The position numbers were made by a program, and so were the translations under genes. Below are positions 6,576 to 47,252 of a stretch of DNA of 64,000 nt, piece by piece. Origin of the DNA: a virus. Lineage: Duplodnaviria; Heunggongvirae; Uroviricota; Caudoviricetes; Crassvirales. The first letter of the stretch is position 1; each line of letters begins with the position of its first letter. Where the stretch lies: the IMG/VR virus record IMGVR_UViG_3300028048_000093; one strand, given 5' to 3'. The notes beneath the pieces were generated by a model. It worked only from the letters and a program-made list of their open reading frames with translations, was not told the origin of the DNA and ran no database searches.

Positions 6576-6784
6576 TTCTTCTTTTTCTTTAATAGGGTTA
6601 CATCTAAATTGTTCTCCTTAATAAGTCTTCTGGCAATAACACAGGCTAGCTTGTAAGGTATGCTCATGTGTCTCCCTAGGGAGTTCACATATATGGAATG
6701 GTCTCCATTATTTCTCATATAAAAGAAACCATTCCTTTCAGCCATCTTACAAAATTCCTTATGTGTCCATTGTCTCATTCTCAT
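6572..6784 (-). CDS. HicA/YcfA-like small protein (mRNA interferase toxin fold)
   Basis: THKEFCKMAERNGFFYMRNNGDHSIYVNSLGRHMSIP matches the HicA pattern of K-E-L-I-K-L-L-E-K-x-G-W-x-L-V-R-Q-K-G-S-H-R-x-F-x-H-P-x-G-x-R-V-T-V-P. Confidence 0.45.
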   Translation of the reverse strand: MRMRQWTHKEFCKMAERNGFFYMRNNGDHSIYVNSLGRHMSIPYKLACVIARRLIKENNLDVTLLKKKKK

Positions 6785-7347
6785 AAGTTGAGTTCCTTTG
6801 TAATCTCTTGAAGTAGGCGGTAGTGGTCTTTGCTATCAATAACACCTCTCTGAACTAACTGTATGGTTACAGCTATCCAGTCCACAAATGGGTTTATCCT
6901 CATACCATCAAGAACATCCTTCATTGGGCATCCCAGTGCTCTGTCATCTATGAATAAATCACAGCCACACTTAGGACTTGCAGTCCATTCTTCCTGGTTT
7001 GGGAATTTGTTTACTGAGAACAAAGGGATGTCATGGTCTTTGAACCAATCTATTGCATCCTGCAACACATCCCTACCTAAGTCCACTCTGGAGAAGTCAC
7101 CTCTGTCAGGGTCTTTTGCACCCTTCATCATGTGGCTTCTCATGGTATAGAGTATGATTCTGTGACCTCTACTTGCCAAATACCTGAGTACTGGAGCTGC
7201 TCCTATCTCCCTGCCTACAAGAGGAAATGCCTCAGTTACACAAGTTCCGTCAAAATCTACTGCTATTACCATATCATTCCTCTGTGAAATGAGCAATCCT
7301 TCTGAAGTCTTCTCCCTGAGGTACTGGACAGTCCTTAACCCACTCAA
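6781..7347 (-). CDS. HAD-superfamily phosphatase (DxDGT)
   Basis: VIAVDFDGT is HAD motif I. The likely true start is M at 7272 (MVIAVDFDGT), 1 nt after the upstream gene stop. Could be the phosphatase counterpart of the separate Pnk-like kinase. Confidence 0.55.
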   Translation of the reverse strand: MSGLRTVQYLREKTSEGLLISQRNDMVIAVDFDGTCVTEAFPLVGREIGAAPVLRYLASRGHRIILYTMRSHMMKGAKDPDRGDFSRVDLGRDVLQDAIDWFKDHDIPLFSVNKFPNQEEWTASPKCGCDLFIDDRALGCPMKDVLDGMRINPFVDWIAVTIQLVQRGVIDSKDHYRLLQEITKELNL

Positions 7348-7864: not shown

Positions 7865-8387
7865 ACACTACGAAGGTCTGTATAATAGCTGCATGGCGAT
7901 TAATCTTACCCAATGCCTCTGAAATAGACCTCATTGTTGTACCTGAGTAGTAGGAATCATCCAGTAGTATATAATGTGTAGCCTCAAGGTTGCTCTTGAA
8001 TATCTCAGGACTTTTGCCTTCCCTGATACCACCATTCACCACTATCACATCTTTGAAATTGTTAGCTAACTCCTTAGCAAAGTTTGACATAACATAATGC
8101 CCAAACCTGCCAGTTACTATAACTCCTAGGTCTGAGGAGTTCATTGATGTTTGTGAGCCGAATACCCCGTTGATGGCTATTGGTGAAATCATGTGATAGA
8201 AGTCATAGTTGCATACCCAGTCTATGAAAGTCTTTCCAATGTTTTGGTCAGACCTTATCATCAAATCCAAGGCATTGAAAAACTTCTCCCCACCTTCAGG
8301 GTGCTGCTTGAGGATGTCTATTATTTTCTCATTCAGTGTCATAGAACTTCTTGTACCTTTTGTATGTGTCTCTGATGACCTTCTCAC
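7806..8387 (-). CDS. type I phosphoribosyltransferase-fold protein
   Basis: PRPP-binding motif HYILLDDSYYSGTTM. Small size (about 180-190 aa). Confidence 0.55.
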   Translation of the reverse strand: MRRSSETHTKGTRSSMTLNEKIIDILKQHPEGGEKFFNALDLMIRSDQNIGKTFIDWVCNYDFYHMISPIAINGVFGSQTSMNSSDLGVIVTGRFGHYVMSNFAKELANNFKDVIVVNGGIREGKSPEIFKSNLEATHYILLDDSYYSGTTMRSISEALGKINRHAAIIQTFVVYDGSKDSQEFVKSMYRYYE

Positions 8388-8772
8388 TTATAGGACACTG
8401 CCTCTGCTTGTTCCTCTCCAGACATTCTTCCAATGGGGTCTTGAAGTCTCTGAACTCAAGTGTATATTGGATTGATGACCTTCTACCATTAAACTCCTTG
8501 ATGACCCCCTCATACCACTTGGCTTCATTGGGGTTGAGGTTCATGTTGTCCACAACAATGTCATAGCCATTTTCCATAGCCTCAGTGACAATAGCCATCC
8601 TTGCTCTTCTTACTATAGCTTCCCTTGAAGGAACCCAGTACTTTCCAAGCATATATCGGATGTCATCATTGTTGTATCTCACCCTGTGCTCAGGGTCTTC
8701 CTCTGCCCATGCCTTAGCCCATGTTGACTTACCTGAGGCTTGTATGCCTCTACAAAGTATAATCTTACTCAT
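8329..8772 (-). CDS. pnk: polynucleotide 5'-kinase (T4 Pnk kinase-domain-like, P-loop)
   Basis: Walker A GIQASGKST. Overall pattern resembles the T4 Pnk N-terminal kinase (KIILxxGxxGSGKSTWA...DxxR...DNxNL). No fused phosphatase domain. Confidence 0.65.
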   Translation of the reverse strand: MSKIILCRGIQASGKSTWAKAWAEEDPEHRVRYNNDDIRYMLGKYWVPSREAIVRRARMAIVTEAMENGYDIVVDNMNLNPNEAKWYEGVIKEFNGRRSSIQYTLEFRDFKTPLEECLERNKQRQCPISEKVIRDTYKRYKKFYDTE

Positions 8773-29100: not shown

Positions 29101-29619
29101 TTACTCTTCTTGCTTAGATTCTTCCTTGGGCAGGTACAAGGCTTTGCTCACATAAGCCTTCTCCTTCTCAATCTGGGCCTCGAAGAACTGCTGCATATCA
29201 GACATCTGAGCAGACCACTCATCATAGTTTGCCTTAAATGCCTCTGCCATCTTCTTCGCAATCCTGAGGGCAATGGCCTGAATCTTGCTATCAACAATCT
29301 TCTTGCCAATCTCCTCACTGTAGGTGTCATCAGCCCTGCACTCTGTCTTGGCAGTGATAACAGCAATGTATGCCTCTGCCTGAGTGTTGAAGTTGAACTT
29401 GAGGTCCACATCAGGGAATCCCTGAATCACCTTCTGCATAGCTTTGAACATAGGCTTAGACAGGTTAGGTGCAAAGTTCTTCACAGGGATTGCAATGGTA
29501 GCAATACCAATAGTCACCTCACCAACCCTTCGACCTTTCTTCTCTTTAGCTTCCTGACAAATGTACTTTGTGGGAGCTGCCTGCACGAAGATGTCATCTT
29601 TCTTCAGTTTTCCATTCAT
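29101..29619 (-). CDS. hypothetical protein (172 aa)
   Basis: ORF track entry. Confidence 0.45.
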   Translation of the reverse strand: MNGKLKKDDIFVQAAPTKYICQEAKEKKGRRVGEVTIGIATIAIPVKNFAPNLSKPMFKAMQKVIQGFPDVDLKFNFNTQAEAYIAVITAKTECRADDTYSEEIGKKIVDSKIQAIALRIAKKMAEAFKANYDEWSAQMSDMQQFFEAQIEKEKAYVSKALYLPKEESKQEE

Positions 29620-30806
29620 AATGTTAATTCTGTTAAATTTGTTATTGTTGTTACCAACTCTGGGTTATAGTTCTCCATCATTTTGTTCACAATCTCCTCT
29701 TCCCTAGTACCTTTATAGTAAGGGATGATGATAACAGGGTCAGGATGCCTCAGCAATCTTCCTAACTTCTGTGTAATCATCCTGTCAGAGCTATTGAGAA
29801 CAGCATAGATGCCTACTCTGCAATTTACAAGGTTCATGCCCTCATCCAGCATATTGCAGGCTGTGATATGGTCTATGAACCCATCATTGAACTGCTCCAG
29901 ATTCTCTTTGGACTGCTTGGTATTCTTACTATTCACACAGCAAGTTCCAAGTTCCTCAGTCTGAGCTATTCCATTACAGAATGTGAGCGTCCTCTGTTTC
30001 CCTAGGAGGTCTAGAAGAGTTTTAACATAGGCTGATTTCTGCTCAGACAACCATTTCAACCTCTCTCCTGATTTCCTCAGGAACAGATTCTTGAATGTCT
30101 CATTGAACATCTTCTTCCTATACCACTCTATGATTGAAGACAAGTCATCATAGTACTGCCCTTGTGTGCAGGTGATGACTATTCTTCGGTTCTTGATTCC
30201 CTTATACTTCCACCTATCTACATAGGGGATAGTGATTTCTATCTTCTGGGAGGGGTTCTTGACTATCCTGTGGGTCACATAGGTTCTATCAAGAGAGAGG
30301 GGAATGAGATACACACGGGGGTCAGGTAAAACCTCATCCTCAATGGCCTTTCTTGCTGATACCTTATATGTATATAGGTCAGGGAAGAGAGCCTTGAGTT
30401 CTCTTTTGAGGTCTCTGCCTACAGTTGCCGACAACAATATTACATTCTTGGCTATCTGGCTGCTTGCATCACTCCAAGCATCCCTACACCTCTCAGACAG
30501 GTGATGACACTCATCAAATATGATGGCATCCCACCAAGCTGTGTACAGCTTCTTAGGGAATGAGACATAGGTCACAAACTCTACACCCTTGAACCTTTCA
30601 GTATATCCCCATTGCTCTATCTCTTTCTTCCAGTTGTTTATAAGAACCAGCCTGGGAATTACAATGAGGACTCTGGGGTTCTCAGGCACTCGCTTGTTCA
30701 ATAAGTCAAGTGCAATCTTGGACTTGCCAAATGATGTGGGCAACTCACACAATATGTTGGAATTTGATACCTCCAGTATCTCCTCCCTTACTTCTTCTCT
30801 TGTCAT
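29616..30806 (-). CDS. SF2 helicase (DEAD/DEAH-like)
   Basis: Motif I LPTSFGKSKIAL and motif II IFDECHHL. Confidence 0.7.
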   Translation of the reverse strand: MTREEVREEILEVSNSNILCELPTSFGKSKIALDLLNKRVPENPRVLIVIPRLVLINNWKKEIEQWGYTERFKGVEFVTYVSFPKKLYTAWWDAIIFDECHHLSERCRDAWSDASSQIAKNVILLSATVGRDLKRELKALFPDLYTYKVSARKAIEDEVLPDPRVYLIPLSLDRTYVTHRIVKNPSQKIEITIPYVDRWKYKGIKNRRIVITCTQGQYYDDLSSIIEWYRKKMFNETFKNLFLRKSGERLKWLSEQKSAYVKTLLDLLGKQRTLTFCNGIAQTEELGTCCVNSKNTKQSKENLEQFNDGFIDHITACNMLDEGMNLVNCRVGIYAVLNSSDRMITQKLGRLLRHPDPVIIIPYYKGTREEEIVNKMMENYNPELVTTITNLTELTL

Positions 30807-31591: not shown

Positions 31592-32389
31592 CTACTTGCT
31601 GAATTTGCTGATGTCCATGAATGTGGACTGATTACCTCCAGTGACAACAGAAGGTACTGAACCATCCCATTTGTCAATCCATGCTTTCTGCAATACAGCA
31701 GGTGTCAGTGCCTGAGTCCTCAGCCTATTGGCCTCAGCTTCAGCTTCAGCAGCAACTACCAGTTTCCTAGCCTGTGCTTCTGCTACCTTGACCTCATTCT
31801 CAGCCTTCTGAGCATCCTGTACTGCCTTGTTCTTAGCATTGACTGCCTCTACAATAGTGGAAGGATATTTCAAGCCTGATGTCAGCTGCTCCAACTGGAA
31901 GCCTTCTCTGTTAAGTGTGGCTACCAACTGTCTTTCTACAGCTTTCTCCAGACTGTCCCTCATAGACACAATCTCATCAGTGGTGAATTTATTGAGCTGA
32001 ATCCTAAAGGCATCCCTTACATGGTTGAACAGCGGGCCACCTATAATATCGGGCACATCTTTCCTGTACTTTCTAAAGATAGGAGCAGCCTGTCCATCAA
32101 TAATCTTGAGGGAGATAGTAGGGTCAACTGTAAACTCAGAACCATCCTTTGCATTGATGGTAAAGGCAGGGTAGTCAACTGTCTGCACAAAGGTAGGGTA
32201 CTCATACACATTCTGAGTGAATGGGTTGTACCACACCATACCTGTGACCAGACTCACATCATTGACTCCCTTGTCTGAGCCATACAGATTCACTAAGATG
32301 CCTTCATGTCCAGCATCAACTCTTTCACATGAGCTAAAGCTCAACAATGCCATCAGTGCGATGGCCATTGTGCAAATAAATTTCTTCAT
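31592..32389 (-). CDS. SPFH/band-7 domain lipoprotein
   Basis: Signal peptide with lipobox-like LSFSSC. AEAEAEANRLR region typical of stomatin/HflK-like SPFH proteins. A12 leader. Confidence 0.5.
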   Translation of the reverse strand: MKKFICTMAIALMALLSFSSCERVDAGHEGILVNLYGSDKGVNDVSLVTGMVWYNPFTQNVYEYPTFVQTVDYPAFTINAKDGSEFTVDPTISLKIIDGQAAPIFRKYRKDVPDIIGGPLFNHVRDAFRIQLNKFTTDEIVSMRDSLEKAVERQLVATLNREGFQLEQLTSGLKYPSTIVEAVNAKNKAVQDAQKAENEVKVAEAQARKLVVAAEAEAEANRLRTQALTPAVLQKAWIDKWDGSVPSVVTGGNQSTFMDISKFSK

Positions 32390-33365: not shown

Positions 33366-33541
33366 ATTACAATGTAGCTTCGTCTGCTGAAATCATACAA
33401 CCTGTAGTCATTGTACCACATGATGAGGGTATGTTTACCATTCAACCATATTGTATCAAACCTTGGTTCCCATACTACATATATGAAACCATACAGGATT
33501 CCCAACAGAGCTAGTGTTGATAATATTAAAAGCATACTCAT
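33356..33541 (-). CDS. small membrane protein (61 aa)
   Basis: ORF track entry. One transmembrane helix. Confidence 0.3.
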   Translation of the reverse strand: MSMLLILSTLALLGILYGFIYVVWEPRFDTIWLNGKHTLIMWYNDYRLYDFSRRSYIVIWP

Positions 33542-34062
33542 ATCTCAGGGTTGCAAGCTATTACATAATCGAAGTTTGAGAGAACCTCCCTTATTTTCTT
33601 GGTCTCTATCTGCTCCATTTCTTCAACCTTGCCATAGAGGTTTGTAATACAAGCTGCATCAAAGTGTATGAGGTTAGGCTCTACTTCATGGTGTACATCA
33701 TCTATGATAGCTTCCATAGTGAAACCTTCACAGACAAAATCATCCACTATGATGAGGGCATCACCATTCAATAGGAACCTTGATATTCCTGACAGTGAAT
33801 GAGAATGACTATTCTCACCCTCTTTTCTTGACATACAGATATGTACCTCTACCCCTTCTGCTATCAGTGTATGAGCTATAGCTCCTGCCATCATAGCACC
33901 TGATGTTCCTCTTCCTACCAAACATATACTCCTGTTAGGATATAGTTGCATCAGAGTTTCAGCTGCATTAGTGGCAAAAGTTATGAATCCCTTTACTGAA
34001 CTTCCCATTGGGTACTCTACATAACTGTAGTCCACCCCTATAAACTTTGTTTGCTTCTCCAT
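33538..34062 (-). CDS. type I phosphoribosyltransferase-fold protein (second copy, divergent)
   Basis: PRPP-binding-like motif ALIIVDDFVCEGFTM. Confidence 0.5.
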   Translation of the reverse strand: MEKQTKFIGVDYSYVEYPMGSSVKGFITFATNAAETLMQLYPNRSICLVGRGTSGAMMAGAIAHTLIAEGVEVHICMSRKEGENSHSHSLSGISRFLLNGDALIIVDDFVCEGFTMEAIIDDVHHEVEPNLIHFDAACITNLYGKVEEMEQIETKKIREVLSNFDYVIACNPEI

Positions 34063-34763: not shown

Positions 34764-34782
34764 CTTTTTTTTTTAGTCACTA

Positions 34783-34859
34783 TGGCGAATTAGACAGGAT
34801 TTGAACCTATTACACTTTGTATGACAAACAAATGCTCTATCCAAATGAGCTACAAATTC
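34783..34859 (-). tRNA. tRNA-Asp(GTC), CCA encoded
   Basis: Manual fold: acceptor GAATTTG/CTAATTC, D arm GCTC...GAGC, anticodon loop TTGTCAT, T arm with GGTTCAAATCC. Confidence 0.7.
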
Positions 34860-34866
34860 TTTACCA

Positions 34867-34879
34867 TATTGTAAGTGAC
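34867..34879 (-). repeat. recurring motif GTCACTTACAATA (minus orientation) 7 nt upstream of tRNA-Asp
   Basis: Variants of the same motif also occur at 35181-35191, 35273-35285, 35563-35575, 39745, 39896 and 39927, mostly 7-15 nt 5' of tRNA or tRNA-like starts. Confidence 0.4.
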
Positions 34880-35089
34880 TCTATCTTTTGTTGTTAATAA
34901 TCAATAAAAGCAGCTTCTTATTCTCGGCTAATGCTGCAAAGCCTCAACCCAACATAGGTATGTCAAGTGCTGGGATTTAGCTCTCTTGGTTCCTGAAAAG
35001 GACGGGTAAGCAGCCTTGATATGTAGCTGGCTGCTTGTACAGATTGCGTTGTGGAACTACTAGAGAGTGTAGGATAGTCACTAAGTTGT

Positions 35090-35135
35090 GTCAACATTAA
35101 AAGTGTTGTGCTCTAACCACTGAGCTAATCTGCCG
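35090..35135 (-). pseudogene. tRNA-Lys(TTT)-like 5' fragment (acceptor, D arm and anticodon arm only)
   Basis: Reads CGGCAGATTAGCTCAGTGGTTAGAGCACAACACTTTTAATGTTG. No T arm or 3' acceptor follows within 250 nt. Confidence 0.4.
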
Positions 35136-35139
35136 ATAA

Positions 35140-35167
35140 TGGAGGCGGATATAGGAGTCGAACCTAT
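35140..35167 (-). pseudogene. orphan tRNA 3' fragment (T arm, acceptor 3' strand and CCA)
   Basis: Reads ATAGGTTCGACTCCTATATCCGCCTCCA. No matching 5' half is present upstream. Confidence 0.35.
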
Positions 35168-35198
35168 GCTTGATGTGGTCTTGTAAGTGACTATGTAG

Positions 35199-35323
35199 TG
35201 GGGGAGCCTGGACTCGAACCAGGAATTTCAAAAACCTCAATTTTGCGTGTTTACCTGAATTTTAATGATAGTATTGTATGTGACTAATAGTCACACGAAA
35301 ATTACTAATTTCACTACTCCCCC
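35199..35323 (-). ncRNA. tRNA-like RNA gene (~125 nt) with ~75-nt insertion in place of the anticodon arm
   Basis: Perfect acceptor pairing GGGGGAG/CTCCCCC. T arm CCTGGTTCGAGTCCAGG. Internal 8-bp palindrome TGTGACTA-T-TAGTCACA and a copy of the upstream motif lie inside. Confidence 0.4.
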
Positions 35324-35327
35324 ATAA

Positions 35328-35460
35328 TGGGCGGGGAATGAGAGAATCGAACTCCCATTTCTGGATTGTGTCCCAGAAAAATTGTATAAGATGCTGTTGT
35401 ATGTATCAAATAGGACACGGAGATACACAATACAATCGGCAACCATTGCCAAATTCCCCA
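35328..35460 (-). ncRNA. tRNA-like RNA gene (~133 nt) with extended anticodon-region hairpins, CCA encoded
   Basis: Acceptor TGGGGAA/TTCCCCG. D arm TGGC-AATGGTT-GCCG. T arm GGGAGTTCGATTCTCTC. About 57 extra nt between the D and T arms form hairpins. Confidence 0.4.
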
Positions 35461-35477
35461 TTGAAAGACACTAATAA

Positions 35478-35550
35478 ACTTACATATTGGAATCGAACCA
35501 ATTATACTCTGATTACCAATCGGATGCTCTACCTAATGAGCTAATGTTAA
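35478..35550 (-). tRNA. tRNA-Thr(GGT)
   Basis: Manual fold: D arm GCTC-ATTAGGTA-GAGC, anticodon loop TTGGTAA, T arm TTGGTTCGATTCCAA. The acceptor has one mismatch. Confidence 0.5.
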
Positions 35551-35562
35551 TTTTTACTATAG

Positions 35563-35575
35563 TATTGTAAGTGTC
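35563..35575 (-). repeat. motif copy (GACACTTACAATA) 13 nt upstream of tRNA-Thr
   Basis: Same motif family as 34867-34879. Confidence 0.35.
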
Positions 35576-35633
35576 TTAATTGTGGATGAGTGAGGTATCA
35601 CCCTCACCCACCCTAGAATCTGTAAAAAAGGTC

Positions 35634-37517
35634 TTACAGAGTATTTGCTCTCACAAGCTCATACCTGTTTGACCTGTGGATTGACTGCAAGGGAGTATAG
35701 ACATCGAAGACATCCATATCCTTGAAGTTAGTCAGGAACTGCTCAATTTGTGCAGGATTTGAAGGAATGTACATCAGGTTGTCTATACCTGAGAACTTCT
35801 CTACAGCCCTCTCCATATACCTGTCATCATAGCCATTGGTTACATCCATAGCCACAATGAAAGGCTTGAAGCCTAGGTGTATCTCGCACTGTCTGAGTAA
35901 ATCAGCCACTGAGGACTCAGGGCTGGGCAGATTGTTCCACTCTCCATCTGAAATGATAGTCCATACAGGGAAATCCTTGAGGGCATCCTTCAGCTGAGGG
36001 AAGTCAGTCATAATGACTTTGAGGCTCTTAATGAGAGTAGAAATGTCAGTCCAACCACCACCAAACATACCTCTAAGATAAGAACTGATGTTCTTGTAGT
36101 TATCCATAAAGGATTTGGTGGGGTCAACAAAGGGTTTGTTCACAGACTTTACACCTGAGTTCCTTCTCATAATAGAGTTAGGAGTCTCTGCTGCTTCCCT
36201 ATCAATGTGGCTGAACCATCTACAGCTTCTTCCAAAGAGGCCAACTAGGTTCCTACCATCATCATCGGGGTTCTTGCACAGACATACAGATGCAATGAAG
36301 GATGCAAAGGAGAAGGGCATACCACTCATAGACCCTGAGTCATCAATAATGACGAGGGTATTGTAAGGCAGGTTTACCTTATTCTGAATGAAAGCTTCAA
36401 GTTTGGCACCATCCACTCTACCAGAGATAATCTGCTGATACAACTCCTTGAAGTTTGTTGCACCAACATTAACCTTAGCCTCCTTCTTGACCTTCTGCAA
36501 CTTCACCTTATCCTCCTCTGAAGCCTGACCTTGTCTGACTTTCTCCTCAAGCACTCTCTGCTCTGTCTGCTTCTGCTCTTTGTATGCCTCCCACTTGGCT
36601 ACCCAAGGCTGGAACTTGGCCCACTTAGCTACCTCCTGTGTAGCAGTTACAGACTTTCCATCCATACCTGCTGTCTCACAGTCAGTGTCTATGACCTTAG
36701 AATAAAGAATCCTGTTCTTTACCCTGAACCTAGCCTGAGAAGGCAGCTTGTCAAACCAATCCAAGAACTGACTCTCGTCAAATTCATTGATTTTGCCTGT
36801 GGAGAAGAGTACACTTTCAAGTGAGCCATTGAACTCCTTGCGCCACTCTCTGTAGCCCTTGAAATTCACATAGGTTCCCTTGACCTCATACTCCCAACCC
36901 ATAAGCTTAGATAGTTCAACAAGGAACTTAGCCTTATTCTCCATTACCTGTTTGGTCTGAGGGAGCATCTTCTTGTGGCCTGCTCTCTTGGAGAATCTGG
37001 GTATAGTGAGGAATTTAGCAATCAGCAGCTTGTTGAAGGGGTTCTTACCATTGATGACTGCATATACATACTTTAAGAGTTCCTCTCTGTACCAATCATC
37101 AGCAAAGATGTCATAGACCTTGAGAACCTTAGAACCCTTGGTCTGTACTCTGCTTCTGAATAAGGTATCAAAGCACTGATACTCATTGAACAAACCAGCA
37201 TTGAGGAACTTCACAAACTGTTGCTTGTGATTGGTTCTCAGCCAGTTAAATATGGTATAGAAGCCTTCACGGTTGGCATTACCACCACTGTCCTTCTTAA
37301 CACCACCAAAGATGTTGTGCTGCCTAGCTGTGATGTCACCTACTGAGAACAGAATGGAGAAGAACAGCTCACGATGTTCCTTATTCTCCTTGACCTCATT
37401 CCAGCAGGTATTGAGCATGGACTCAGAGATAGTGCTGCCTACAGCCTGTGTGAGGTTGAGGCAGTTCCTTAATCCGTAAAAGGGATTGTTACTAGTTTGG
37501 TTTAACTTCACTTCCAT
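35634..37517 (-). CDS. von Willebrand factor A (vWA) domain protein, 627 aa
   Basis: MIDAS motif LVIIDDSGSMSG, then GGWTD, then ISDGE. The C-terminal segment KPFIVAMDVTNGYD resembles the Ro60 vWA segment KLIVCGMTSNGF. The N-terminal ~380 aa are uncharacterised. Confidence 0.6.
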   Translation of the reverse strand: MEVKLNQTSNNPFYGLRNCLNLTQAVGSTISESMLNTCWNEVKENKEHRELFFSILFSVGDITARQHNIFGGVKKDSGGNANREGFYTIFNWLRTNHKQQFVKFLNAGLFNEYQCFDTLFRSRVQTKGSKVLKVYDIFADDWYREELLKYVYAVINGKNPFNKLLIAKFLTIPRFSKRAGHKKMLPQTKQVMENKAKFLVELSKLMGWEYEVKGTYVNFKGYREWRKEFNGSLESVLFSTGKINEFDESQFLDWFDKLPSQARFRVKNRILYSKVIDTDCETAGMDGKSVTATQEVAKWAKFQPWVAKWEAYKEQKQTEQRVLEEKVRQGQASEEDKVKLQKVKKEAKVNVGATNFKELYQQIISGRVDGAKLEAFIQNKVNLPYNTLVIIDDSGSMSGMPFSFASFIASVCLCKNPDDDGRNLVGLFGRSCRWFSHIDREAAETPNSIMRRNSGVKSVNKPFVDPTKSFMDNYKNISSYLRGMFGGGWTDISTLIKSLKVIMTDFPQLKDALKDFPVWTIISDGEWNNLPSPESSVADLLRQCEIHLGFKPFIVAMDVTNGYDDRYMERAVEKFSGIDNLMYIPSNPAQIEQFLTNFKDMDVFDVYTPLQSIHRSNRYELVRANTL

Positions 37518-37566
37518 AATGATGCAACGTTAGATAAGTAAAAACTTGTAAGTAACACTAAATGTT

Positions 37567-38757: not shown

Positions 38758-38932
38758 TCAGTTGTAACATAAATTTTCTGCAATGAGGTGCATCCCATGT
38801 CACCTGAGAAAAGGATGCCAACCTTACTTGACTTTGTTTGGCAGTCTTTCTGGGATAAAGGATTGAGGTATTCTACTGTAGTCCTCACACACTTTCATGC
38901 TGAACAGATACCCAGTTACTTCTACCTCATAG

Positions 38933-39435
38933 TGGAGCTAGAGGGAGTCGAACCCTCGTCCAAACAGTTCAGCCATAGGAAACTAAATACACGCTTTTGC
39001 CATTACTGGCACTTGGGGCTGACTGGAAGTCAACCAATCCACCACTCCATTTTGAGAAAACGGAGAAAACACTCTCTCACATATTGCATCTGATGTTATC
39101 TCTGCCCCAGTTATTGAGAGTTGTGACAGTCTATCTTCAGGTATAATAGTGGCTTACCTCCTCCGTGCATCAGAGCAAATTAAGCACTGGGACTTCGGAC
39201 TACCAATCTTAGTTTCCCCTCAGATTTAGCTACACACCCTTTCAGATTATCTGTCTCTTGGTGAGTTTCTGTTTCAGGCACTCACCTTGCCTAGCACTTA
39301 CGCAGCAATCCTGAGGACTGTTTTGCTGGCAGGAGTCATTACAACTACCTTAGCATTTATTGGTTTACCATTTCAAGGCATGGATGCCTGCGTGATTTCC
39401 TACCACATTCCTGCTGTCAAAACCGTGATAACCCC
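38933..39435 (-). ncRNA. ssrA: tmRNA (ssrA)-like gene, ~500 nt
   Basis: 3' end GGACGAGGGTTCGACTCCCTCTAGCTCCA closely matches the tmRNA T arm/acceptor (E. coli GGACGCGGGTTCAACTCCCGCCAGCTCCA). 5' end GGGGTTATCACGGTTTTGACAG resembles GGGGCTGATTCTGGATTCGAC and gives a G3-U70 acceptor. A candidate tag ORF GCC AGC AAA ACA GTC CTC AGG ATT GCT GCG TAA (ASKTVLRIAA*) starts about nt 106. Confidence 0.45.
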
Positions 39436-39714: not shown

Positions 39715-39782
39715 ATATACCTCTATATTCACATACTGAGGTATTGTTCTGTTTACACATAAACAGCGTAAGTAGTACATTG

Positions 39783-39856
39783 TACTGCCTAGGAGACTCG
39801 AACTCCTAATAGCCACATCGAAAGTGTGGTGACTTAACCAATTTGTCCAAGGCAGC
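39783..39856 (-). tRNA. tRNA-Glu(TTC)
   Basis: Acceptor GCTGCCT/AGGCAGT, anticodon stem CCACA/TGTGG, loop CTTTCGA, T arm AGGAGTTCGAGTCTCCT. Confidence 0.7.
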
Positions 39857-39970
39857 AAGTGAGTGTGTATAGTGTTTCACACATGGTAATTCATACCATT
39901 ATTGTTCGTGGTACTAGCACGCTACATATTGTTTGCACAAACTCCCACACTCATCAATCACATGGTGATG

Positions 39971-44734: not shown

Positions 44735-44806
44735 TGGGTTATAGCGCAATGGTAACGCACAGGATTTTGGTCCCTGATATTCTAGGTTCGACTCCTAGTG
44801 ACCCAA
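44735..44806 (+). tRNA. tRNA-Gln(TTG)
   Basis: Acceptor TGGGTTA/TGACCCA, anticodon loop TTTTGGT, T arm CTAGGTTCGACTCCTAG. Confidence 0.6.
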
Positions 44807-44812
44807 CAAAAT

Positions 44813-44887
44813 GCAGCCATCCCTGCTAACAGGTTAGGCAACTACACTCTCAATGTAGAAATCAGGGTTCGAGTCCCTGTGGCTGTA
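44813..44887 (+). tRNA. tRNA-Glu(CTC) (D arm irregular)
   Basis: Acceptor GCAGCCA/TGGCTGT, anticodon stem CTACA/TGTAG with loop CTCTCAA, T arm CAGGGTTCGAGTCCCTG. The D arm does not fold canonically by eye. Confidence 0.5.
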
Positions 44888-44922
44888 CTAGGAGTTCTTT
44901 GACATACTGACACACTATTATA

Positions 44923-44993
44923 GGATATGTGGTGTAATAGGTAACATACCACCCTGTCACGGTGAAGTTAGGGGTTCGAGTCCCCCATATCCT
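44923..44993 (+). tRNA. tRNA-Asp(GTC)
   Basis: Acceptor GGATATG/CATATCC, anticodon loop CTGTCAC, T arm GGGGTTCGAGTCCCC. Confidence 0.6.
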
Positions 44994-45048
44994 GCAAGAT
45001 ACCACACCTATCTAGTCCACATAGGCACAGCGGTGTAATGTGGCAGTT

Positions 45049-45139
45049 GGAGAGTTAAGCCTAATTGGTAAGGCAGTAGTCCTGAAAACTACTAGTAGTC
45101 GTGAATAGCGGTGTGTGGGTTCAAGTCCCACACTCTCCT
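45049..45139 (+). tRNA. tRNA-Ser(TGA), class II with long variable arm
   Basis: Acceptor GGAGAGT/ACTCTCC, anticodon stem GTAGT/ACTAC, loop CCTGAAA, T arm GTGGGTTCAAGTCCCAC. Confidence 0.6.
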
Positions 45140-45150
45140 CTCTTTATTAT

Positions 45151-45223
45151 ATAGGTGTAGCTCAGTAGGTAGAGTTCTTGCTTTGGGAGCAAGATGTCGC
45201 AGGTTCGAGTCCTGTCACCTATA
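45151..45223 (+). tRNA. tRNA-Pro(TGG)
   Basis: Acceptor ATAGGTG/CACCTAT, anticodon stem CTTGC/GCAAG, loop TTTGGGA, T arm GCAGGTTCGAGTCCTGT. Confidence 0.7.
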
Positions 45224-45228
45224 CTATT

Positions 45229-45314
45229 GGAGGTGAGAAGCCTAGAGGTAAGGTCTTGGTTTGCTAAACCAAAGGTTCAATAAAATGGATGAGTTTCGAT
45301 TACTCCTGCCTCCG
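45229..45314 (+). tRNA. tRNA-Ser(GCT), class II
   Basis: Acceptor GGAGGTG/TGCCTCC, anticodon stem TTGGT/ACCAA, loop TTGCTAA, T loop TTCGATT. Confidence 0.55.
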
Positions 45315-45322
45315 CTTAAATT

Positions 45323-45396
45323 GGGGTTGTAGCTCAGATGGCTAGAGCATCTGCTTTGCAAGCAGAGGGTCGAGGGTTCGAGTCCCTTCTTCTCCA
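45323..45396 (+). tRNA. tRNA-Ala(TGC)
   Basis: 5' half almost identical to canonical tRNA-Ala (GGGGTTGTAGCTCAG...CTGCTTTGCAAGCAG). G3-U70 pair present. Two mismatches in the acceptor. Confidence 0.6.
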
Positions 45397-45456
45397 CACA
45401 CGGATTCTTGTTCATAATGTTAATGGAGCCTAGCTAGAGGGTAAAATCTAGCAATC

Positions 45457-45528
45457 GGGGATATAGCTCAATGGCAGAGCAACTGGCTGTTAACCAGTAG
45501 GTTGTGGGTTCGACTCCCTCTATGCCCG
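45457..45528 (+). tRNA. tRNA-Asn(GTT)
   Basis: Acceptor GGGGATA/TATGCCC, anticodon stem ACTGG/CCAGT, loop CTGTTAA, T loop TTCGACT. Confidence 0.6.
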
Positions 45529-45688
45529 CAAGGTTGTGATGCAAGCACTCCGAGGTCAGCATGACTTGCAAATGACTGACTGCCTCTACTCTGAAAGACT
45601 CCTGAGTGCAATAAGGGAGTGTAATCAATGAGAAGGGATGACGAAAGCAGGACACAGGGATTTCACTGCCCACAGAGCCTGCTTACCT

Positions 45689-45760
45689 TGGTCTTTAGTG
45701 GAATGGTAACACGTCAGATTCTGGCTCTGAAGATTGGGAGTTCGACCCTCTCAAGACCAA
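45689..45760 (+). tRNA. tRNA-Gln(CTG)
   Basis: Acceptor TGGTCTT/AAGACCA, anticodon stem TCAGA/TCTGA, loop TTCTGGC, T arm GGGAGTTCGACCCTCTC. Confidence 0.6.
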
Positions 45761-45765
45761 CATAC

Positions 45766-45842
45766 AGGGGCATAGTTTTAATGGTAAAACACTGGTCTCC
45801 AAAACCAGATTTGGGGGTTCGATTCCTTCTGTCTCTGCCCTA
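45766..45842 (+). tRNA. tRNA-Trp(CCA)-like with aberrant T-arm/acceptor 3' region
   Basis: 5' two-thirds align with E. coli tRNA-Trp (AGGGGCATAGTT...CTGGTCTCCAAAACCAG). The 3' region carries about 6 extra nt (CCTTCTGTCTCTGCCCT). Possibly a pseudogene or a non-canonical T arm. Confidence 0.45.
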
Positions 45843-45861
45843 ACTTTTAACAAGTTTACAT

Positions 45862-46038
45862 TATGATTACAGGTTTGATTATTGCAGGTGTTTGGCTGGC
45901 AGGTAGTGTTGCAGCTTGGCATCTAGGTGTTAAGGATTGGGATAATCCTAAGTGGGAGAATGTTGCATTGAGCCTTGCATGGCCTTGCATCCTACCTTTG
46001 TGGTGCATCCATAGGATTCACAATGGTCATTGGTAATG
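45862..46038 (+). CDS. small membrane protein (58 aa) embedded in tRNA array
   Basis: Manual translation gives MITGLIIAGVWLAGSVAAWHLGVKDWDNPKWENVALSLAWPCILPLWCIHRIHNGHW. Below the ORF-track cutoff. Confidence 0.3.
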
Positions 46039-46045
46039 ACCATAT

Positions 46046-46119
46046 TGGGATATAGCTTAGAAGGTTAAAGCGTTTGACTGATAATCAAGAGACCACAGGT
46101 TCAAGTCCTGTTATCCCAA
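46046..46119 (+). tRNA. tRNA-Ile(GAT)
   Basis: Acceptor TGGGATA/TATCCCA, anticodon stem TTTGA/TCAAG, loop CTGATAA, T arm ACAGGTTCAAGTCCTGT. Confidence 0.6.
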
Positions 46120-46121
46120 CT

Positions 46122-46193
46122 GTACTAGTAGCTTAATGGTAAAGCCCCTGATTGTGAGTCAGGTGTATGTGAGTTCGAGCCTCACCTAGCACC
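46122..46193 (+). tRNA. tRNA-His(GTG)
   Basis: Anticodon stem CCTGA/TCAGG, loop TTGTGAG, T arm GTGAGTTCGAGCCTCAC. Acceptor has one mismatch. Confidence 0.6.
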
Positions 46194-46270
46194 CTTCTCG
46201 GTTGTCGTGAGACAAGTCCTTTCACACGCGGTTTTTCGTTTACTTTTTTCATGTTTTCGTTTTGTTTTTC

Positions 46271-46300
46271 CTCCTGCCTGTGAAGGTCGGAGGTTTTTGT
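46271..46300 (+). terminator. rho-independent terminator inside tRNA array
   Basis: CCTCCTGCC ... GGTCGGAGG followed by TTTTTGTT. Confidence 0.45.
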
Positions 46301-46370
46301 TCTCTTAGCTCAGCGGTAGAGCAATACACTTTTAATGTATGGGTCCAGGGTTCGAGTCTCTGAGGGAACA
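46299..46370 (+). tRNA. tRNA-Lys(TTT)
   Basis: Acceptor GTTCTCT/AGGGAAC, D arm GCTC-AGCGGTA-GAGC, anticodon loop CTTTTAA, T arm CAGGGTTCGAGTCTCTG. Confidence 0.7.
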
Positions 46371-46398
46371 CACTTTTAGTTATTAACCCTTAAAAGTG
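46369..46398 (+). other. perfect hairpin immediately after tRNA-Lys
   Basis: ACACTTTTAG ... CTTAAAAGTGT forms an 11-bp stem. Confidence 0.4.
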
Positions 46399-46547
46399 TA
46401 TTGAATATGAAAAAGATTAAGAACATTTGCAAGAGGGTACTGAAGGCTTATTGTAAGGGAGCTGTTATGATGTACCCAACTGGTACTATTCCAGTAAGGA
46501 TTGACCTATAGGAGGTCAACCCTTTCACTTGAGGGTAATAATTACAT

Positions 46548-46629
46548 TGGAGTATAGATAGCTGGAAAAATCCGCAGACTGTAAATCTGTCGTCTTTTGA
46601 CTGTGGGGGTTCGAGTCCCTCTGCTCCAA
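46548..46629 (+). tRNA. tRNA-Tyr(GTA), long variable arm
   Basis: Acceptor TGGAGTA/TGCTCCA, anticodon loop CTGTAAA, T arm GGGGGTTCGAGTCCCTC. Confidence 0.55.
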
Positions 46630-46638
46630 CTAATATAA

Positions 46639-46713
46639 TGGACACTTGGCAGACTTGGTGTATGCGCTGGACTGAAAATCCAGAGAACGAGGTTCAACTC
46701 CTTGAGTGCCCAC
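46639..46713 (+). tRNA. tRNA-Phe(GAA)
   Basis: Anticodon stem CTGGA/TCCAG, loop CTGAAAA, T arm CGAGGTTCAACTCCTTG. Acceptor has one mismatch. Confidence 0.55.
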
Positions 46714-46867
46714 ACTATGTATTGCAGAATCAAGAATCAAGAATGTCCTCATGCAGGAGAATTGAAGATGAAGGGCTGTGAGGAAATAGGTGAGAAACCA
46801 GGTGTATATGCTTACACTATATGCTATAAAGAAGGTGGCAGGTTGGCTTGTACCCTAGGTATTTAGT

Positions 46868-46948: not shown

Positions 46949-46989
46949 CTTTAGTTAAACAATGTTAAGGTATTGCACTTTTTGACCAA

Positions 46990-47030: not shown

Positions 47031-47044
47031 TCAAATTAATAATT

Positions 47045-47251: not shown

Positions 47252-47252
47252 G

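What the first reader, a model, noticed from the sequence alone, without database searches (positions are those of the whole stretch)
34860..35640. Cluster of tRNA fragments and chimeric tRNA-like genes sharing a recurring GTCACTTACAATA upstream motif
Between tRNA-Asp and tRNA-Thr the minus strand carries four pieces that are not ordinary tRNAs:
- a tRNA-Lys(TTT) 5' portion (acceptor, D arm, anticodon arm) with no 3' half (35090-35135);
- an orphan T-arm/acceptor/CCA 3' portion (35140-35167);
- two full-length tRNA-like genes with inserts (35199-35323 and 35328-35460).

A 13-nt motif, [T/G]AGTCACTTACAATA[C/T] in minus orientation, sits 7-15 nt upstream of tRNA-Asp, tRNA-Thr and the orphan 3' half. 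It also sits inside both insert-bearing genes, which carry a duplicated ACAATACTAT..AAAATT segment from the tRNA-Thr leader. Related copies occur between the minus-strand tRNAs at 39715-39970 (CAGAACAATACC, CCACGAACAATAATGG, GTGCAAACAATATGTAG).

A TACAAT hexamer 7-8 nt before the mature 5' end looks like a -10 element that would start transcripts exactly at or inside the tRNA. It does not match the host TAnnTTTG consensus, so it may be recognised by a phage-encoded or phage-modified RNA polymerase. The sequence following the Lys 5' fragment (TTAGTGACTAT) is complementary to the sequence preceding the orphan 3' half (ATAGTCACTTA), reminiscent of split-tRNA leader/trailer pairing.
Basis: seen in the sequence. 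Interest (0 to 1): 0.6.

Follow-up and report, generated by a model that had tools for sequence, protein, structure and literature searches.

The report
Permuted tRNA genes beside Ro60-like gene
A crAss-like gut/rumen phage carries an array of tRNA genes that are whole, interrupted or circularly permuted, each tagged with one conserved "short helix + UUACAA" module. The array lies next to a gene for a Ro60-like RNA-binding protein, so it most resembles a Y-RNA/tRNA-mimic system, and it hides tRNAs that standard finders miss.

Summary
The pieces and the motif are real, but they are not debris.

- **Permuted tRNA.** The "orphan 3' half" and the "Lys 5' half" form one circularly permuted tRNA-Lys(UUU) gene. 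Re-joined in silico it scores 120 in ARAGORN, within the range of the 23 normal tRNAs in the window.
- **Interrupted tRNAs.** The two insert-bearing genes are tRNAs interrupted in the D loop and the anticodon loop.
- **Shared module.** Every unit has box X (AGNNACU) followed by UACAA, plus a complementary box X'. In 90 related sequences, 279 of 367 unique modules have a perfect 7-bp partner. The variable bases covary, the motif is 459:8 strand-biased, and 60 unique permuted tRNA genes occur.
- **Adjacent protein.** The module also brackets the start codon of the neighbouring 627-aa gene. Its predicted fold (helical domain + vWA) is closest to Ro60/Rsr.

My best reading (about 0.5) is a phage Ro60/Y-RNA-like system in which the module is the protein's binding site. 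The rivals are an RNA cut-and-join signal and a phage promoter. This looks like a new variant of a known kind. I found no report of permuted tRNA genes in phages.

The parts
35634..37517 (-). 627-aa protein with an all-alpha N-terminal domain and a C-terminal vWA domain (MIDAS motif DDSGSMSG). The fold is Ro60/Rsr-like (DUF2828-vWA type). It is always found immediately upstream of the RNA array.
37488..37557 (-). Module around the start codon of the 627-aa gene: box X TGTTACT (37557-37551) + TACAA (37550-37546), ATG at 37517, and box X' AGTAAC inside the ORF (37493-37488).
   Evidence: In 54 unique homologous leaders, 50 keep the cognate AGTAAC, against 0.13 on average for non-cognate variants. 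It is always in frame as Ser-Asn, at one of two alternative sites.
35466..35576 (-). Unit 1: box X AGACACT + TACAA (35576-35565), tRNA-Thr(GGT) 35551-35477, box X' AGTGTCT (35472-35466).
   Evidence: The MFE fold closes with the X/X' helix. Orthologous units in relatives carry other X/X' pairs.
35328..35460 (-). Unit 2: type II (long variable arm) tRNA-like gene with G73. It is interrupted in the anticodon loop by box X' (35427-35422), a loop, then box X TGATACA + TACAA (35408-35397).
   Evidence: ARAGORN intron mode. Deleting 37 nt gives a type II tRNA scoring 115.8, with the anticodon depending on the exact junction. MFE fold. Orthologues in L001-L008 show compensatory changes in the acceptor, D and T stems and in the hairpin, and U33 is kept.
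35199..35323 (-). Unit 3: tRNA-Leu(GAG)-like gene with A73. It is interrupted in the D loop (between positions 17 and 18) by about 51 nt containing box X' (35295-35290), box X AGTCACA + TACAA (35285-35274) and a basal helix AAUUUU/AAAAUU.
   Evidence: Deleting 51 nt gives a 74-nt tRNA-Leu(gag) scoring 120.3. Rfam tRNA partial hit. Fold z-score -4.1. In the orthologue L002 8551 and related D-loop-interrupted genes L005 9360/9565 and L004 7943, the D stem covaries (GTGA/ACAC, GCTA/TAGC, ACTT/AAGT).
35076..35192 (-). Unit 4: circularly permuted tRNA-Lys(UUU) gene. In order: box X AGTCACT + TACAA (35192-35181), 13-nt leader, T arm 35167-35151, acceptor 3' strand 35150-35144, U73 + CCA 35143-35140, linker UUAUC 35139-35135, acceptor 5' strand 35134-35128, D arm 35125-35110, anticodon arm 35108-35092, trailer, box X' AGTGACT (35082-35076).
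   Evidence: Sequence. Re-joined in silico it is called tRNA-Lys(ttt) with score 117-124, against 101.6-122.3 for the 23 ordinary tRNAs. Weak YrlA hit of 19.8 bits. Across 31 homologues, 93.6% of cells are paired and all 7 acceptor pairs covary. There are 60 unique permuted units in relatives.
34775..34880 (-). Unit 5: box X AGTCACT + TACAA (34880-34869), tRNA-Asp(GUC) with encoded CCA (34859-34783), box X' AGTGACT (34781-34775).
8329..8772 (-). T4 polynucleotide-kinase-like P-loop kinase (147 aa). It is a possible RNA end-healing enzyme. The link to the array is circumstantial.
   Evidence: AAA_33 E=1.2e-15. PDB 1ly1/1ltq T4 Pnk E=2e-6 over residues 1-143.
6781..7272 (-). HAD-type phosphatase (BT0820 family). 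It is a possible 3'-phosphatase partner of the kinase. The link to the array is circumstantial.
   Evidence: NCBIfam NF046079 E=1.6e-19.

Best explanation
The 34.8-37.6 kb stretch is the RNA-gene array of a phage Ro60/Y-RNA-like system.

**The module.** Every RNA unit carries the same module. Box X (5'-AGNNACU) pairs with a complementary box X' to form a 7-9 bp helix. The single-stranded UACAA follows immediately on the 5' strand.

**Where the module joins the tRNA body.** The attachment point differs between units:
- at the two ends of an ordinary tRNA (Thr, Asp);
- inside the D loop (Leu-like gene 35323-35199);
- inside the anticodon loop (type II gene 35460-35328);
- at the variable loop, with the gene circularly permuted so that the T arm and 3' acceptor strand come first and the acceptor is closed by CCA plus a 5-nt linker (Lys, 35192-35076).

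The same module also brackets the start codon of the adjacent 627-aa gene.

**Shown here:**
- the anatomy of the units;
- the X/X' pairing and its covariation;
- the cloverleaf covariation of the permuted genes;
- the conservation of the arrangement across a large clade of crAss-like phages;
- the Ro60-like predicted fold of the protein.

**Inferred:**
1. The 627-aa protein binds the module, as Ro60 binds the conserved 5'-strand motif and stem of Y RNAs.
2. The tRNA-like bodies are processed by RNase P and 3' trimming or CCA addition, as shown for M. smegmatis YrlA. The permuted units would then become two-strand tRNA mimics held together by the acceptor stem and the X/X' helix. They may be chargeable, or serve as decoys or platforms for tRNA-directed enzymes.
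3. Binding at its own mRNA leader autoregulates the protein.
For: **Module pairing**
- In the window plus 9 relatives, 67 of 83 motifs have the cognate complement: 74 hits against 6.7 per non-cognate NN.
- The unseeded flanking position pairs in 86% of cases, with A-U, G-C and U-A all seen.
- In 90 sequences, 279 of 367 unique motifs have a perfect 7/7 partner and 68 have 6/7.
- Internal single mismatches are G.U 14 against A.C 1, about 7 against 1 independent events. This fits pairing in the sense-strand RNA.
- Strand bias is 459:8.
- The MFE folds of all five window units contain the helix.

**Permuted tRNA**
- The re-joined Lys gene scores 120 in ARAGORN.
- On 31 homologues, 93.6% of cells are paired (68.5% when shuffled, 36-44% when slid). 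24 of 30 pairs change on both sides, including 7 of 7 acceptor pairs.
- U33 is invariant.

**Protein**
- The MIDAS motif is present.

**Parallels with known Y RNA systems**
- YrlA genes lie within 4 kb of Ro60 on the same strand, often several per locus.
- They have a short conserved motif near the 5' end that Ro60 contacts on the 5' strand.
- They have a tRNA-like domain in the order T arm, acceptor hairpin, D arm, with 15:48 Levitt compensation.
- M. smegmatis YrlA has a 7-bp acceptor stem, is cut by RNase P and receives CCA (PMC4201824).
- Phage phiLo Ro60 binds two adjacent Y-like RNAs, each with a 5'-3' stem and a motif-bearing bulge (PMC12135203).
- Rfam's YrlA model is the only non-tRNA family that touches the permuted unit (19.8 bits).

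**Own-mRNA module**
- 50 of 54 unique leaders keep the cognate box inside the ORF.
Against: - No binding has been shown.
- The conserved motif (ACUUACAA) differs from the Ro-binding motifs GNCGAAN0-1G/CGAA.
- The YrlA covariance model scores far below its threshold (19.8 against 69).
- Unlike YrlA, many units have complete anticodon arms with U33, a purine at 37 and many different anticodons. This points to real decoding tRNAs and hence to a maturation function of the module.
- The motif also sits where a promoter would.
Confidence: 0.5

Rival explanations
1. The module is an RNA cut-and-join signal, a bacterial-virus analogue of the archaeal/algal bulge-helix-bulge system. The X/X' helix brings the ends together. 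An endonuclease cuts on both sides, and a ligase then joins exons (interrupted genes) or circularises the pre-tRNA (permuted genes). The ligase would be host RtcB, or a phage Rnl acting after Pnk/phosphatase healing. RNase P and 3' processing then open the acceptor end. The products are ordinary decoding tRNAs. The Ro-like protein could be the platform for this. This rival partly overlaps the best explanation.
For: - All three classes of disrupted tRNA genes known from archaea and algae are mirrored here, always with the same junction element. Permuted genes break at several positions, and interrupted genes are broken at the D loop, at 26/27 and in the anticodon loop.
- Anticodon loops keep U33 and R37 and carry many anticodons.
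- Anticodon-loop insertions must be removed for decoding. In the type II family, the 5' side of the loop keeps U33 in all 8 genes read and a purine at 37 in 6 of them; the anticodon triplet between them is not conserved across the family (my reading).
- In-silico removal restores high-scoring tRNAs.
- The window encodes a T4-Pnk-like kinase and a HAD phosphatase.
- Distant relatives encode an Rnl2-type RNA ligase directly upstream of the 627-aa homologue, and one relative encodes RlaP.
Against: - No splicing endonuclease and no ligase were found in the roughly 81 kb of this phage that could be inspected.
- The helix lacks the two 3-nt bulges of a BHB motif.
- The distances from the module to the inferred exon ends vary: 0-12 nt on the 5' side and about 9-17 nt on the 3' side. 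That is hard to reconcile with a ruler-type nuclease.
- In the type II family the 5' junction would fall inside the helix.
- The same module encloses the start codon of an mRNA, where cutting would destroy the message.
- Whole tRNAs and empty hairpins also carry the module.
Confidence: 0.22
2. The motif is a compact phage-specific promoter. The polymerase would be the crAss-type virion RNA polymerase or a modified host enzyme. Transcription would start a few nucleotides downstream of UUACAA. Box X' would mark the 3' end of each unit (termination or processing). tRNA pieces would be made as separate or permuted transcripts, and X/X' would pair only in read-through RNA or at the DNA level.
For: - The motif is sense-oriented and lies 10-36 nt (once 2 nt) upstream of the ATG of the 627-aa gene in 54 unique relatives.
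- It lies 9-14 nt upstream of whole tRNAs.
- Strand bias is extreme.
- The spacing to the first nucleotide of the downstream tRNA part is short and roughly constant, about 9-13 nt.
- The phage encodes a gp66-like RNA polymerase just outside the window (6VR4, E=2.7e-33). For that enzyme no promoter consensus was found in phi14:2 (bioRxiv 10.1101/2020.03.07.982082).
- In AT-rich relatives, box X' is often followed by a T run.
Against: - There is no -35 or any other conserved upstream block.
- The final T of 'TACAAT' is not conserved, and the positions equivalent to -11/-10 are the variable ones.
- The motif is absent from all other genes of the window, occurring only at 34.8-37.6 kb.
- A promoter alone does not predict partner-specific covariation with a box 50-120 nt away, G.U-biased mismatches, or a cognate box maintained inside the ORF.
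- The T run after X' is absent in the window's own clade.
Confidence: 0.2
3. The pieces are recombination debris or pseudogenes left by shuffling of tRNA cassettes between repeated promoter-like sequences, and have no function of their own.
For: - Tandem duplication of a module-interrupted gene followed by loss of the outer halves would generate exactly the permuted order.
- tRNA content differs between related phages.
- Orthologous tRNA bodies carry different anticodons.
Against: - The same permuted and interrupted genes persist in phages whose neighbouring protein is only 42-75% identical.
- Compensatory changes occur in every helix.
- U33 is invariant, the T loops are conserved, and CCA is often encoded.
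- There are 60 unique permuted units, and the permuted arrangement keeps full cloverleaf potential.
Confidence: 0.03

Closest known systems
Bacterial and phage Y RNAs of the YrlA type with Ro60/Rsr (Chen et al. 2014, PMC4201824; Thermus phage phiLo Ro60 with Yrl1/Yrl2, PMC12135203)
   Same: - Several small RNA genes lie next to, and on the same strand as, a helical-repeat + vWA protein.
- The 5' and 3' ends pair into a stem.
- A short conserved motif sits on the 5' strand next to the stem.
- The tRNA-like body is in permuted order: T arm, acceptor hairpin, D arm.
- The Levitt 15:48 pair covaries.
- The acceptor stem has 7 bp with CCA, as in M. smegmatis YrlA, which RNase P cuts.
   Different: - The protein is not detected by TROVE sequence models; only the fold is similar.
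- The motif is ACUUACAA rather than GNCGAAN0-1G/CGAA.
- Many units keep a full anticodon arm with a canonical loop and varied anticodons.
- The module is also attached to whole tRNAs, inserted into D and anticodon loops of otherwise normal tRNA genes, and placed around the protein's own start codon.
- Arrays hold up to a dozen units.
- The host phage is crAss-like.
Circularly permuted tRNA genes of Cyanidioschyzon merolae and other algae and of Thermofilum, and split tRNAs of Nanoarchaeum (from my own knowledge; reviewed in PMC4090602)
   Same: - The 3' half is encoded upstream of the 5' half on one strand, with a short linker joining the acceptor strands.
- Leader and trailer are complementary.
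- Permuted and interrupted genes coexist and share the same junction element.
- Break points occur in several loops, including 37/38.
   Different: - This is a bacterial virus. No BHB motif and no splicing endonuclease are detectable.
- The junction element is a 7-9 bp helix with a sequence-specific UACAA.
- The element also flanks intact tRNAs and an mRNA start.
Promoter-early stem-loop (PeSL) cassettes of T4-type phages, and single-subunit phage RNA polymerase promoters (from my own knowledge)
   Same: A short repeated sequence marks the start of each small gene cassette in a hyperplastic region. It could mediate cassette shuffling and permutation by recombination.
   Different: - There is no -35/-10 architecture.
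- The repeat pairs with a cognate box at the other end of the unit, and the two covary.
- The repeat occurs inside tRNA genes.

Membership tests
Circularly permuted tRNA gene | The 3' half (T arm, 3' acceptor strand) is encoded upstream of the 5' half (5' acceptor strand, D arm, anticodon arm) on the same strand and in one unit. | tested here: met
   Window 35167-35092 minus strand. 60 unique homologous units.
Circularly permuted tRNA gene | The re-joined halves form a canonical cloverleaf supported by covariation. | tested here: met
   ARAGORN calls tRNA-Lys(ttt) with score about 120. 93.6% of cells are paired, 24 of 30 pairs change on both sides, and 7 of 7 acceptor pairs covary.
Circularly permuted tRNA gene | A bulge-helix-bulge motif is formed by leader and trailer and cut by the tRNA splicing endonuclease. 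| tested here: not met
   Leader and trailer form a plain 7-9 bp helix followed by an asymmetric internal loop (19 nt against 7-9 nt), without two 3-nt bulges 4 bp apart. No EndA-like gene was found among the ORFs scanned.
Circularly permuted tRNA gene | Maturation proceeds through a circular RNA intermediate to a contiguous tRNA. | not testable with these tools
   This needs RNA sequencing or RT-PCR across the junction.
Y RNA / YrlA with Ro60 (Rsr) | The RNA is encoded within about 4 kb of a Ro60 orthologue (TROVE + vWA) and on the same strand. | tested here: inconclusive
Y RNA / YrlA with Ro60 (Rsr) | The 5' and 3' ends pair into a stem that carries the protein-binding site. | tested here: met
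   The X/X' helix is supported by covariation. Actual binding was not tested.
Y RNA / YrlA with Ro60 (Rsr) | A conserved GNCGAAN0-1G / CGAA motif lies near the 5' end. | tested here: not met
   The conserved motif at the equivalent place is ACUUACAA.
Y RNA / YrlA with Ro60 (Rsr) | The sequence matches the Rfam YrlA covariance model (RF02553) at its gathering score. | tested here: not met
   19.8 bits against a threshold of 69, covering model positions 30-81 only.
Y RNA / YrlA with Ro60 (Rsr) | A tRNA-like domain in the order T arm, acceptor hairpin, D arm, with Levitt 15:48 compensation. | tested here: met
   My reading of the five units gives G15 with C48 (three times), G15 with U48 and A15 with U48.
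Sigma-70-type or T7-type phage promoter | Two conserved hexamers at a fixed spacing, or a roughly 20-bp conserved block ending at the start site, with invariant recognition positions. | tested here: not met
   Only a 12-17 nt block is conserved. There is no upstream element, positions 2-3 of the block are variable, and the last position of 'TACAAT' is variable.
Sigma-70-type or T7-type phage promoter | Primary transcript 5' ends lie just downstream. | not testable with these tools
   This needs dRNA-seq or Cappable-seq.

The most novel reading that the evidence does not exclude
A clade of crAss-like phages uses genuinely disrupted tRNA genes, both circularly permuted and interrupted by a protein-recognised helix+UUACAA module. 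These would mature into working, aminoacylated tRNAs in one of two ways: as two-strand tRNAs held together by the module helix after RNase P cleavage, or by protein-assisted cutting and ligation. This would be the first disrupted-tRNA gene system outside archaea and eukaryotes. It would use machinery unrelated to the BHB endonuclease, possibly built around a Ro60-like protein. It would also mean that crAss-like phages carry many tRNAs, potentially including suppressors, that current tRNA finders cannot see.
Probability: 0.3. Interest if true: 0.92.

Novelty: new variant of a known kind. Interest (0 to 1): 0.78.

Why it matters
- **Permuted tRNA genes in a phage.** Permuted, split and non-canonically interrupted tRNA genes are textbook peculiarities of archaea and a few algae. 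Here a complete set of such arrangements sits in an abundant group of bacterial viruses. Four full-text searches found no report of this.
- **A link between two fields.** The system connects disrupted tRNA genes with Ro60/Y-RNA tRNA mimics. It suggests that YrlA-type Y RNAs and permuted tRNAs are ends of one continuum.
- **A testable RNA-protein pair.** A 12-nt motif plus helix and a 627-aa protein can be tested directly, in a phage lineage that dominates gut and rumen viromes.
- **A practical annotation problem.** Three tRNA-like genes in this window, and 60 permuted and about 27 interrupted genes in relatives, are invisible to default ARAGORN. That bears on the unexplained mismatch between stop-codon recoding and detectable suppressor tRNAs in crAss-like phages (PMC7886860).

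Tried and rejected
**Searches that found nothing useful**
- Nucleotide and protein searches against cultured phages gave no match.
- Three loose pattern scans of IMG/VR were swamped by chance hits and are ignored: ACTTACAA-N12-22-GGTTCGA and TAAGTTACTTACAAT. The search for intron-less copies of the type II gene found 0, but only 2 interrupted copies are in that collection, so the result is uninformative.
- The afdb50 fold library was unavailable.

**The hunt for an RNA ligase or endonuclease**
- None was found in the window or in 17 kb of flanks.
- One apparent 'KxDG' candidate proved to be the DnaB-like helicase, and another had no domain hit.
- A real Rnl2-type ligase exists only in the distant relatives L206 and L217.

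**Interpretations considered and dropped**
- The ARAGORN intron-mode labels 'tRNA-His(gtg)' and 'tRNA-Leu(taa)' are rejected. The stems they need are not conserved in orthologues. The D-loop parse (Leu GAG) is the supported one for 35323-35199, and the anticodon of 35460-35328 stays undetermined.
- A sigma-70 -10 reading, suggested by the resemblance to the T7 A1 promoter GATACTTACAGCC, is rejected because the key -11 and -7 equivalents are not conserved.
- IS200/IS605-type ends (TTAC target), MazF-type UACAU cleavage, DNA-hairpin promoters of the N4 type and small self-cleaving ribozymes were considered from memory. None could be supported.
- Rfam shows no ribozyme, ROOL or GOLLD family in the window.

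Full report
**1. What is in the window**

All features below are on the minus strand of 34775-37557.

ARAGORN and Rfam find two ordinary tRNAs: Thr(GGU) at 35551-35477 and Asp(GUC) at 34859-34783.

The 13-mer GTCACTTACAATA occurs with at most 1 mismatch four times in the window. All four copies are on this strand and within 710 bp. The proposed 'related copies' at 39715-39970 share only AACAATA and do not match at up to 3 mismatches.

**2. The two 'fragments' are one circularly permuted tRNA gene**

The order on the minus strand is:
- T arm, 35167-35151
- 3' acceptor strand AUCCGCC
- U73 and CCA
- 5-nt linker
- 5' acceptor strand GGCAGAU, 35134-35128
- D arm
- anticodon arm with loop CUUUUAA, 35108-35092

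Joining the 5' part to the 3' part in silico, with 3-9 leader nucleotides as the variable loop, gives tRNA-Lys(ttt) with ARAGORN scores of 117-124. The 23 ordinary tRNAs of the window score 101.6-122.3.

**3. The two insert-bearing genes are interrupted tRNAs**

- *35323-35199.* Deleting 51 nt from the D loop gives a 74-nt tRNA-Leu(gag) scoring 120.3. The orthologue and related D-loop-interrupted genes keep the insertion, and their D stems covary.
- *35460-35328.* This is a type II (long variable arm) tRNA-like gene with G73 and a 37-46 nt insertion in the anticodon loop. The anticodon cannot be fixed, because it depends on the exact junction.
- In a relative, Rfam's tRNA model scores one interrupted gene 51.4 bits with a 39-nt D-loop insertion; two other interrupted genes there score 41.5 and 40.7 bits with the insertion replacing the anticodon region.

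**4. One module is common to everything**

Each unit has three elements:
- box X, AGNNACU;
- UACAA immediately after box X;
- box X', complementary to box X, at the other side of the unit.

The pairs in the window are:

| Unit | Box X | Box X' |
|---|---|---|
| Thr | AGACACU | AGUGUCU |
| Asp | AGUCACU | AGUGACU |
| Permuted Lys | AGUCACU | AGUGACU |
| Type II gene (hairpin) | UGAUACA | UGUAUC |
| Leu-like gene (hairpin) | AGUCACA | UGUGAC |

The MFE folds of all five units contain this helix, with z-scores from -2.0 to -4.1.

**5. Relatives**

The neighbouring 627-aa ORF (35634-37517) retrieved 9 IMG/VR loci and 80 metagenome loci. The protein family has 1282 members, on contigs of about 100-145 kb.

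*Pairing statistics*
- In the window plus 9 loci, 67 of 83 motifs have the cognate complement: 74 hits against 6.7 per non-cognate dinucleotide.
- The unseeded flanking pair is Watson-Crick in 86% of cases, with three pair types.
- In 90 sequences (770 kb) there are 367 unique motif contexts. 279 have a perfect 7/7 partner, 68 have 6/7 and 20 have none.
- Motif copies number 459 on the gene strand against 8 on the other strand.
- Internal single mismatches are G.U 14 and A.C 1. After collapsing orthologues this is about 7 against 1 events. That is the pattern expected for pairing in the sense-strand RNA rather than for a DNA inverted repeat.
- Orthologous units carry different but matched X/X' pairs.

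*Classes of the 367 motif contexts*

| Class | Count |
|---|---|
| Whole tRNA enclosed | 55 |
| Permuted tRNA | 60 |
| Hairpin inside a tRNA gene (perfect partner only) | 26 |
| Short AT-rich hairpin of 50-85 nt | 82 |
| Other, longer than 85 nt | 20 |
| Enclosing the start of a long ORF | 36 |
| No perfect partner | 88 |

*Permuted units*
- The 60 unique permuted units fall into at least three break classes: the variable loop, the anticodon loop of a type II Leu(UAA)-like tRNA, and others. They carry many anticodons.
- On 31 variable-loop-class units the permuted cloverleaf plus the X/X' helix is strongly supported. 93.6% of cells are paired, against 68.5% when shuffled and 36-44% when slid. 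24 of 30 pairs change on both sides, including all 7 acceptor pairs. The covariation score is 0.652 against 0.174.
- Positions 4-9 of the X helix were seeded in selecting these units, so they pair by construction. Position 3 was not seeded and pairs in 31 of 31.
- U33 is invariant in these 31 units.

**6. The neighbouring protein**

- It has no Pfam, PHROG, NCBIfam or PDB sequence hit.
- The family consensus shows a MIDAS motif, IIDDSGSMSG.
- The AF2 model (pLDDT 73) has an all-alpha N-terminal two-thirds and a C-terminal vWA domain.
- Foldseek against the PDB sees only vWA domains.
- Full-length viral matches are DUF2828/VWFA proteins, and homologues give weak DUF2828 hits.

I therefore call the protein Ro60-like in architecture. 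Membership in the TROVE family is not established.

**7. The module on the protein's own mRNA**

- The motif lies 10-36 nt (once 2 nt) upstream of the ATG in all relatives.
- 50 of 54 unique leaders keep the cognate AGUAAC, against an average of 0.13 for non-cognate variants.
- The box is always read as Ser-Asn, at one of two alternative sites (+12 to +30, or +48/+51 from the ATG).
- This suggests selection on the RNA and fits autoregulation.

**8. Comparison with what is known**

YrlA-type Y RNAs have these features (PMC4201824):
- They are encoded within 4 kb of Ro60 and on the same strand, in 254 bacteria and 22 phages.
- They contain a tRNA-like domain in the same permuted order.
- They show 15:48 compensation.
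- In M. smegmatis the RNA has a 7-bp acceptor stem that RNase P cuts and that receives CCA.

Thermus phage phiLo Ro60 binds two adjacent Y-like RNAs, each with a 5'-3' stem and a motif-bearing bulge, and recruits host PNPase (PMC12135203). Some jumbo phages have a TROVE protein with a tRNA-like partner (PMC7824862). The only non-tRNA Rfam family touching the permuted unit is YrlA, at 19.8 bits and far below threshold.

The system here differs in four ways:
- the motif is different;
- complete anticodon arms are present;
- the module attaches to whole and interrupted tRNAs and to an mRNA;
- the protein is highly divergent.

**9. Context**

- The phage is crAss-like. A 2427-aa gene just beyond the left edge of the window matches phi14:2 gp66 RNA polymerase (6VR4, E=2.7e-33).
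- The contig is 105,660 bp.
- The window encodes a T4-Pnk-like kinase (8329-8772) and a HAD phosphatase (6781-7272).
- An Rnl2-type ligase lies directly upstream of the 627-aa homologue in two distant relatives, and RlaP occurs in one.
- No ligase or splicing endonuclease was found in this phage.

**10. Mechanism and rivals**

My best-supported reading, at about 0.5, is a Ro60/Y-RNA-like ribonucleoprotein system in which helix + UACAA is the protein's binding site and the tRNA bodies are tRNA mimics or two-strand tRNAs after RNase P cleavage.

The rivals are not fully exclusive of it:
- a cut-and-join maturation signal that yields ordinary tRNAs (0.22);
- a compact phage promoter with a unit-end box (0.2);
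- debris (0.03), which the covariation largely refutes.

The anatomy, the covariation and the protein fold are shown. Binding, processing, charging and autoregulation are inferred.

**11. Novelty**

Four full-text searches found no report of permuted or split tRNA genes in phages. Phage Ro60/Y RNA pairs are known. I therefore file this as a new variant of a known kind, with a substantial chance that it is more than that.

Noticed in passing
window 38930-39435 (-): A tmRNA gene (Rfam RF00023, 62.2 bits) that ARAGORN did not report in the window. Homologous tmRNAs lie upstream of the 627-aa gene in relatives (L002 4978-5465, L004 3846-4235).
   Followed up: partly
just left of the window: L137 10769-18052 and 18054 onwards (record ERZ27256887 k141_1120918): [quoted passage not shown] This identifies the phage as crAss-like (105.7-kb contig).
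   Followed up: partly
window 8329-8772 (-), 6781-7272 (-); L206 5316-6815: A T4-Pnk-like kinase and a separate HAD phosphatase are encoded in the window. In two distant relatives an Rnl2-type RNA ligase (motif KIHGTS, 499 aa) lies directly upstream of the Ro60-like gene, and a RlaP nucleotidyltransferase occurs in one relative. Together these are RNA end-healing and sealing enzymes scattered through the clade.
   Followed up: partly
window 44735-47634 (+): A second array of 18 ordinary tRNA genes on the other strand has no copy of the motif. It duplicates Asp(GUC) and Lys(UUU) from the module-bearing array, with unrelated sequences (47 of 74 identical positions for Lys).
   Followed up: partly
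window 35551-35477 and its orthologues: L001 5243-5318, L002 7890-7963, L004 7542-7617, L006 7949-8022, L008 8003-8079: The first tRNA after the Ro60-like gene has clearly the same body in different phages but different anticodons: Thr GGU, Asn GUU, Ile GAU, His AUG, and an 8-nt loop. The type II interrupted gene varies in the same way. This looks like anticodon switching among orthologues.
   Followed up: no
window 57396-58607 (+); L138 12987-14300: One ORF has an Mtd_N (major tropism determinant) N-terminal domain, and a reverse transcriptase gene (RVT_1) lies about 3 kb beyond the right edge of the window. This is probably a diversity-generating retroelement.
   Followed up: no
L005 11860-12000, L003 about 12430-12520, L006 about 12370, L007 about 10520: tRNA genes in AT-rich relatives appear to be interrupted after the anticodon by sequences resembling group I intron cores (...GGCGAGAAAUCCCAUAG...AAUCUCCCUAAAACGGUGGAAAUCC...). 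Rfam at gathering threshold did not report them.
   Followed up: no
window 35600-35632 (-): A conserved GC-rich hairpin (GGGUGGGUGAGGGUGAUACCUCACUCAUCC) lies directly after the stop codon of the Ro60-like gene and before the first module. It is also present in L001, L002 and L004, and has no U run.
   Followed up: no
window 31592-32389 (-), 33538-34062 (-), 29616-30806 (-): An SPFH/Band-7 protein, a phosphoribosyltransferase-domain protein and a DEAD-box helicase lie just downstream of the RNA array. Band-7 and DEAD/ResIII/Helicase_C helicase genes recur near the array in relatives (3 and 3-4 ORFs).
   Followed up: no
window 35082-34881 (-): About 200 nt lie between the permuted Lys unit and the Asp module. 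The stretch has two stem-loops (one terminator-like: GCAGC...GCUGC UUUUAUU) and no recognisable gene. In L001 and L002 the corresponding place holds a further interrupted tRNA-like gene with a variant motif, ACUUACCAA.
   Followed up: no
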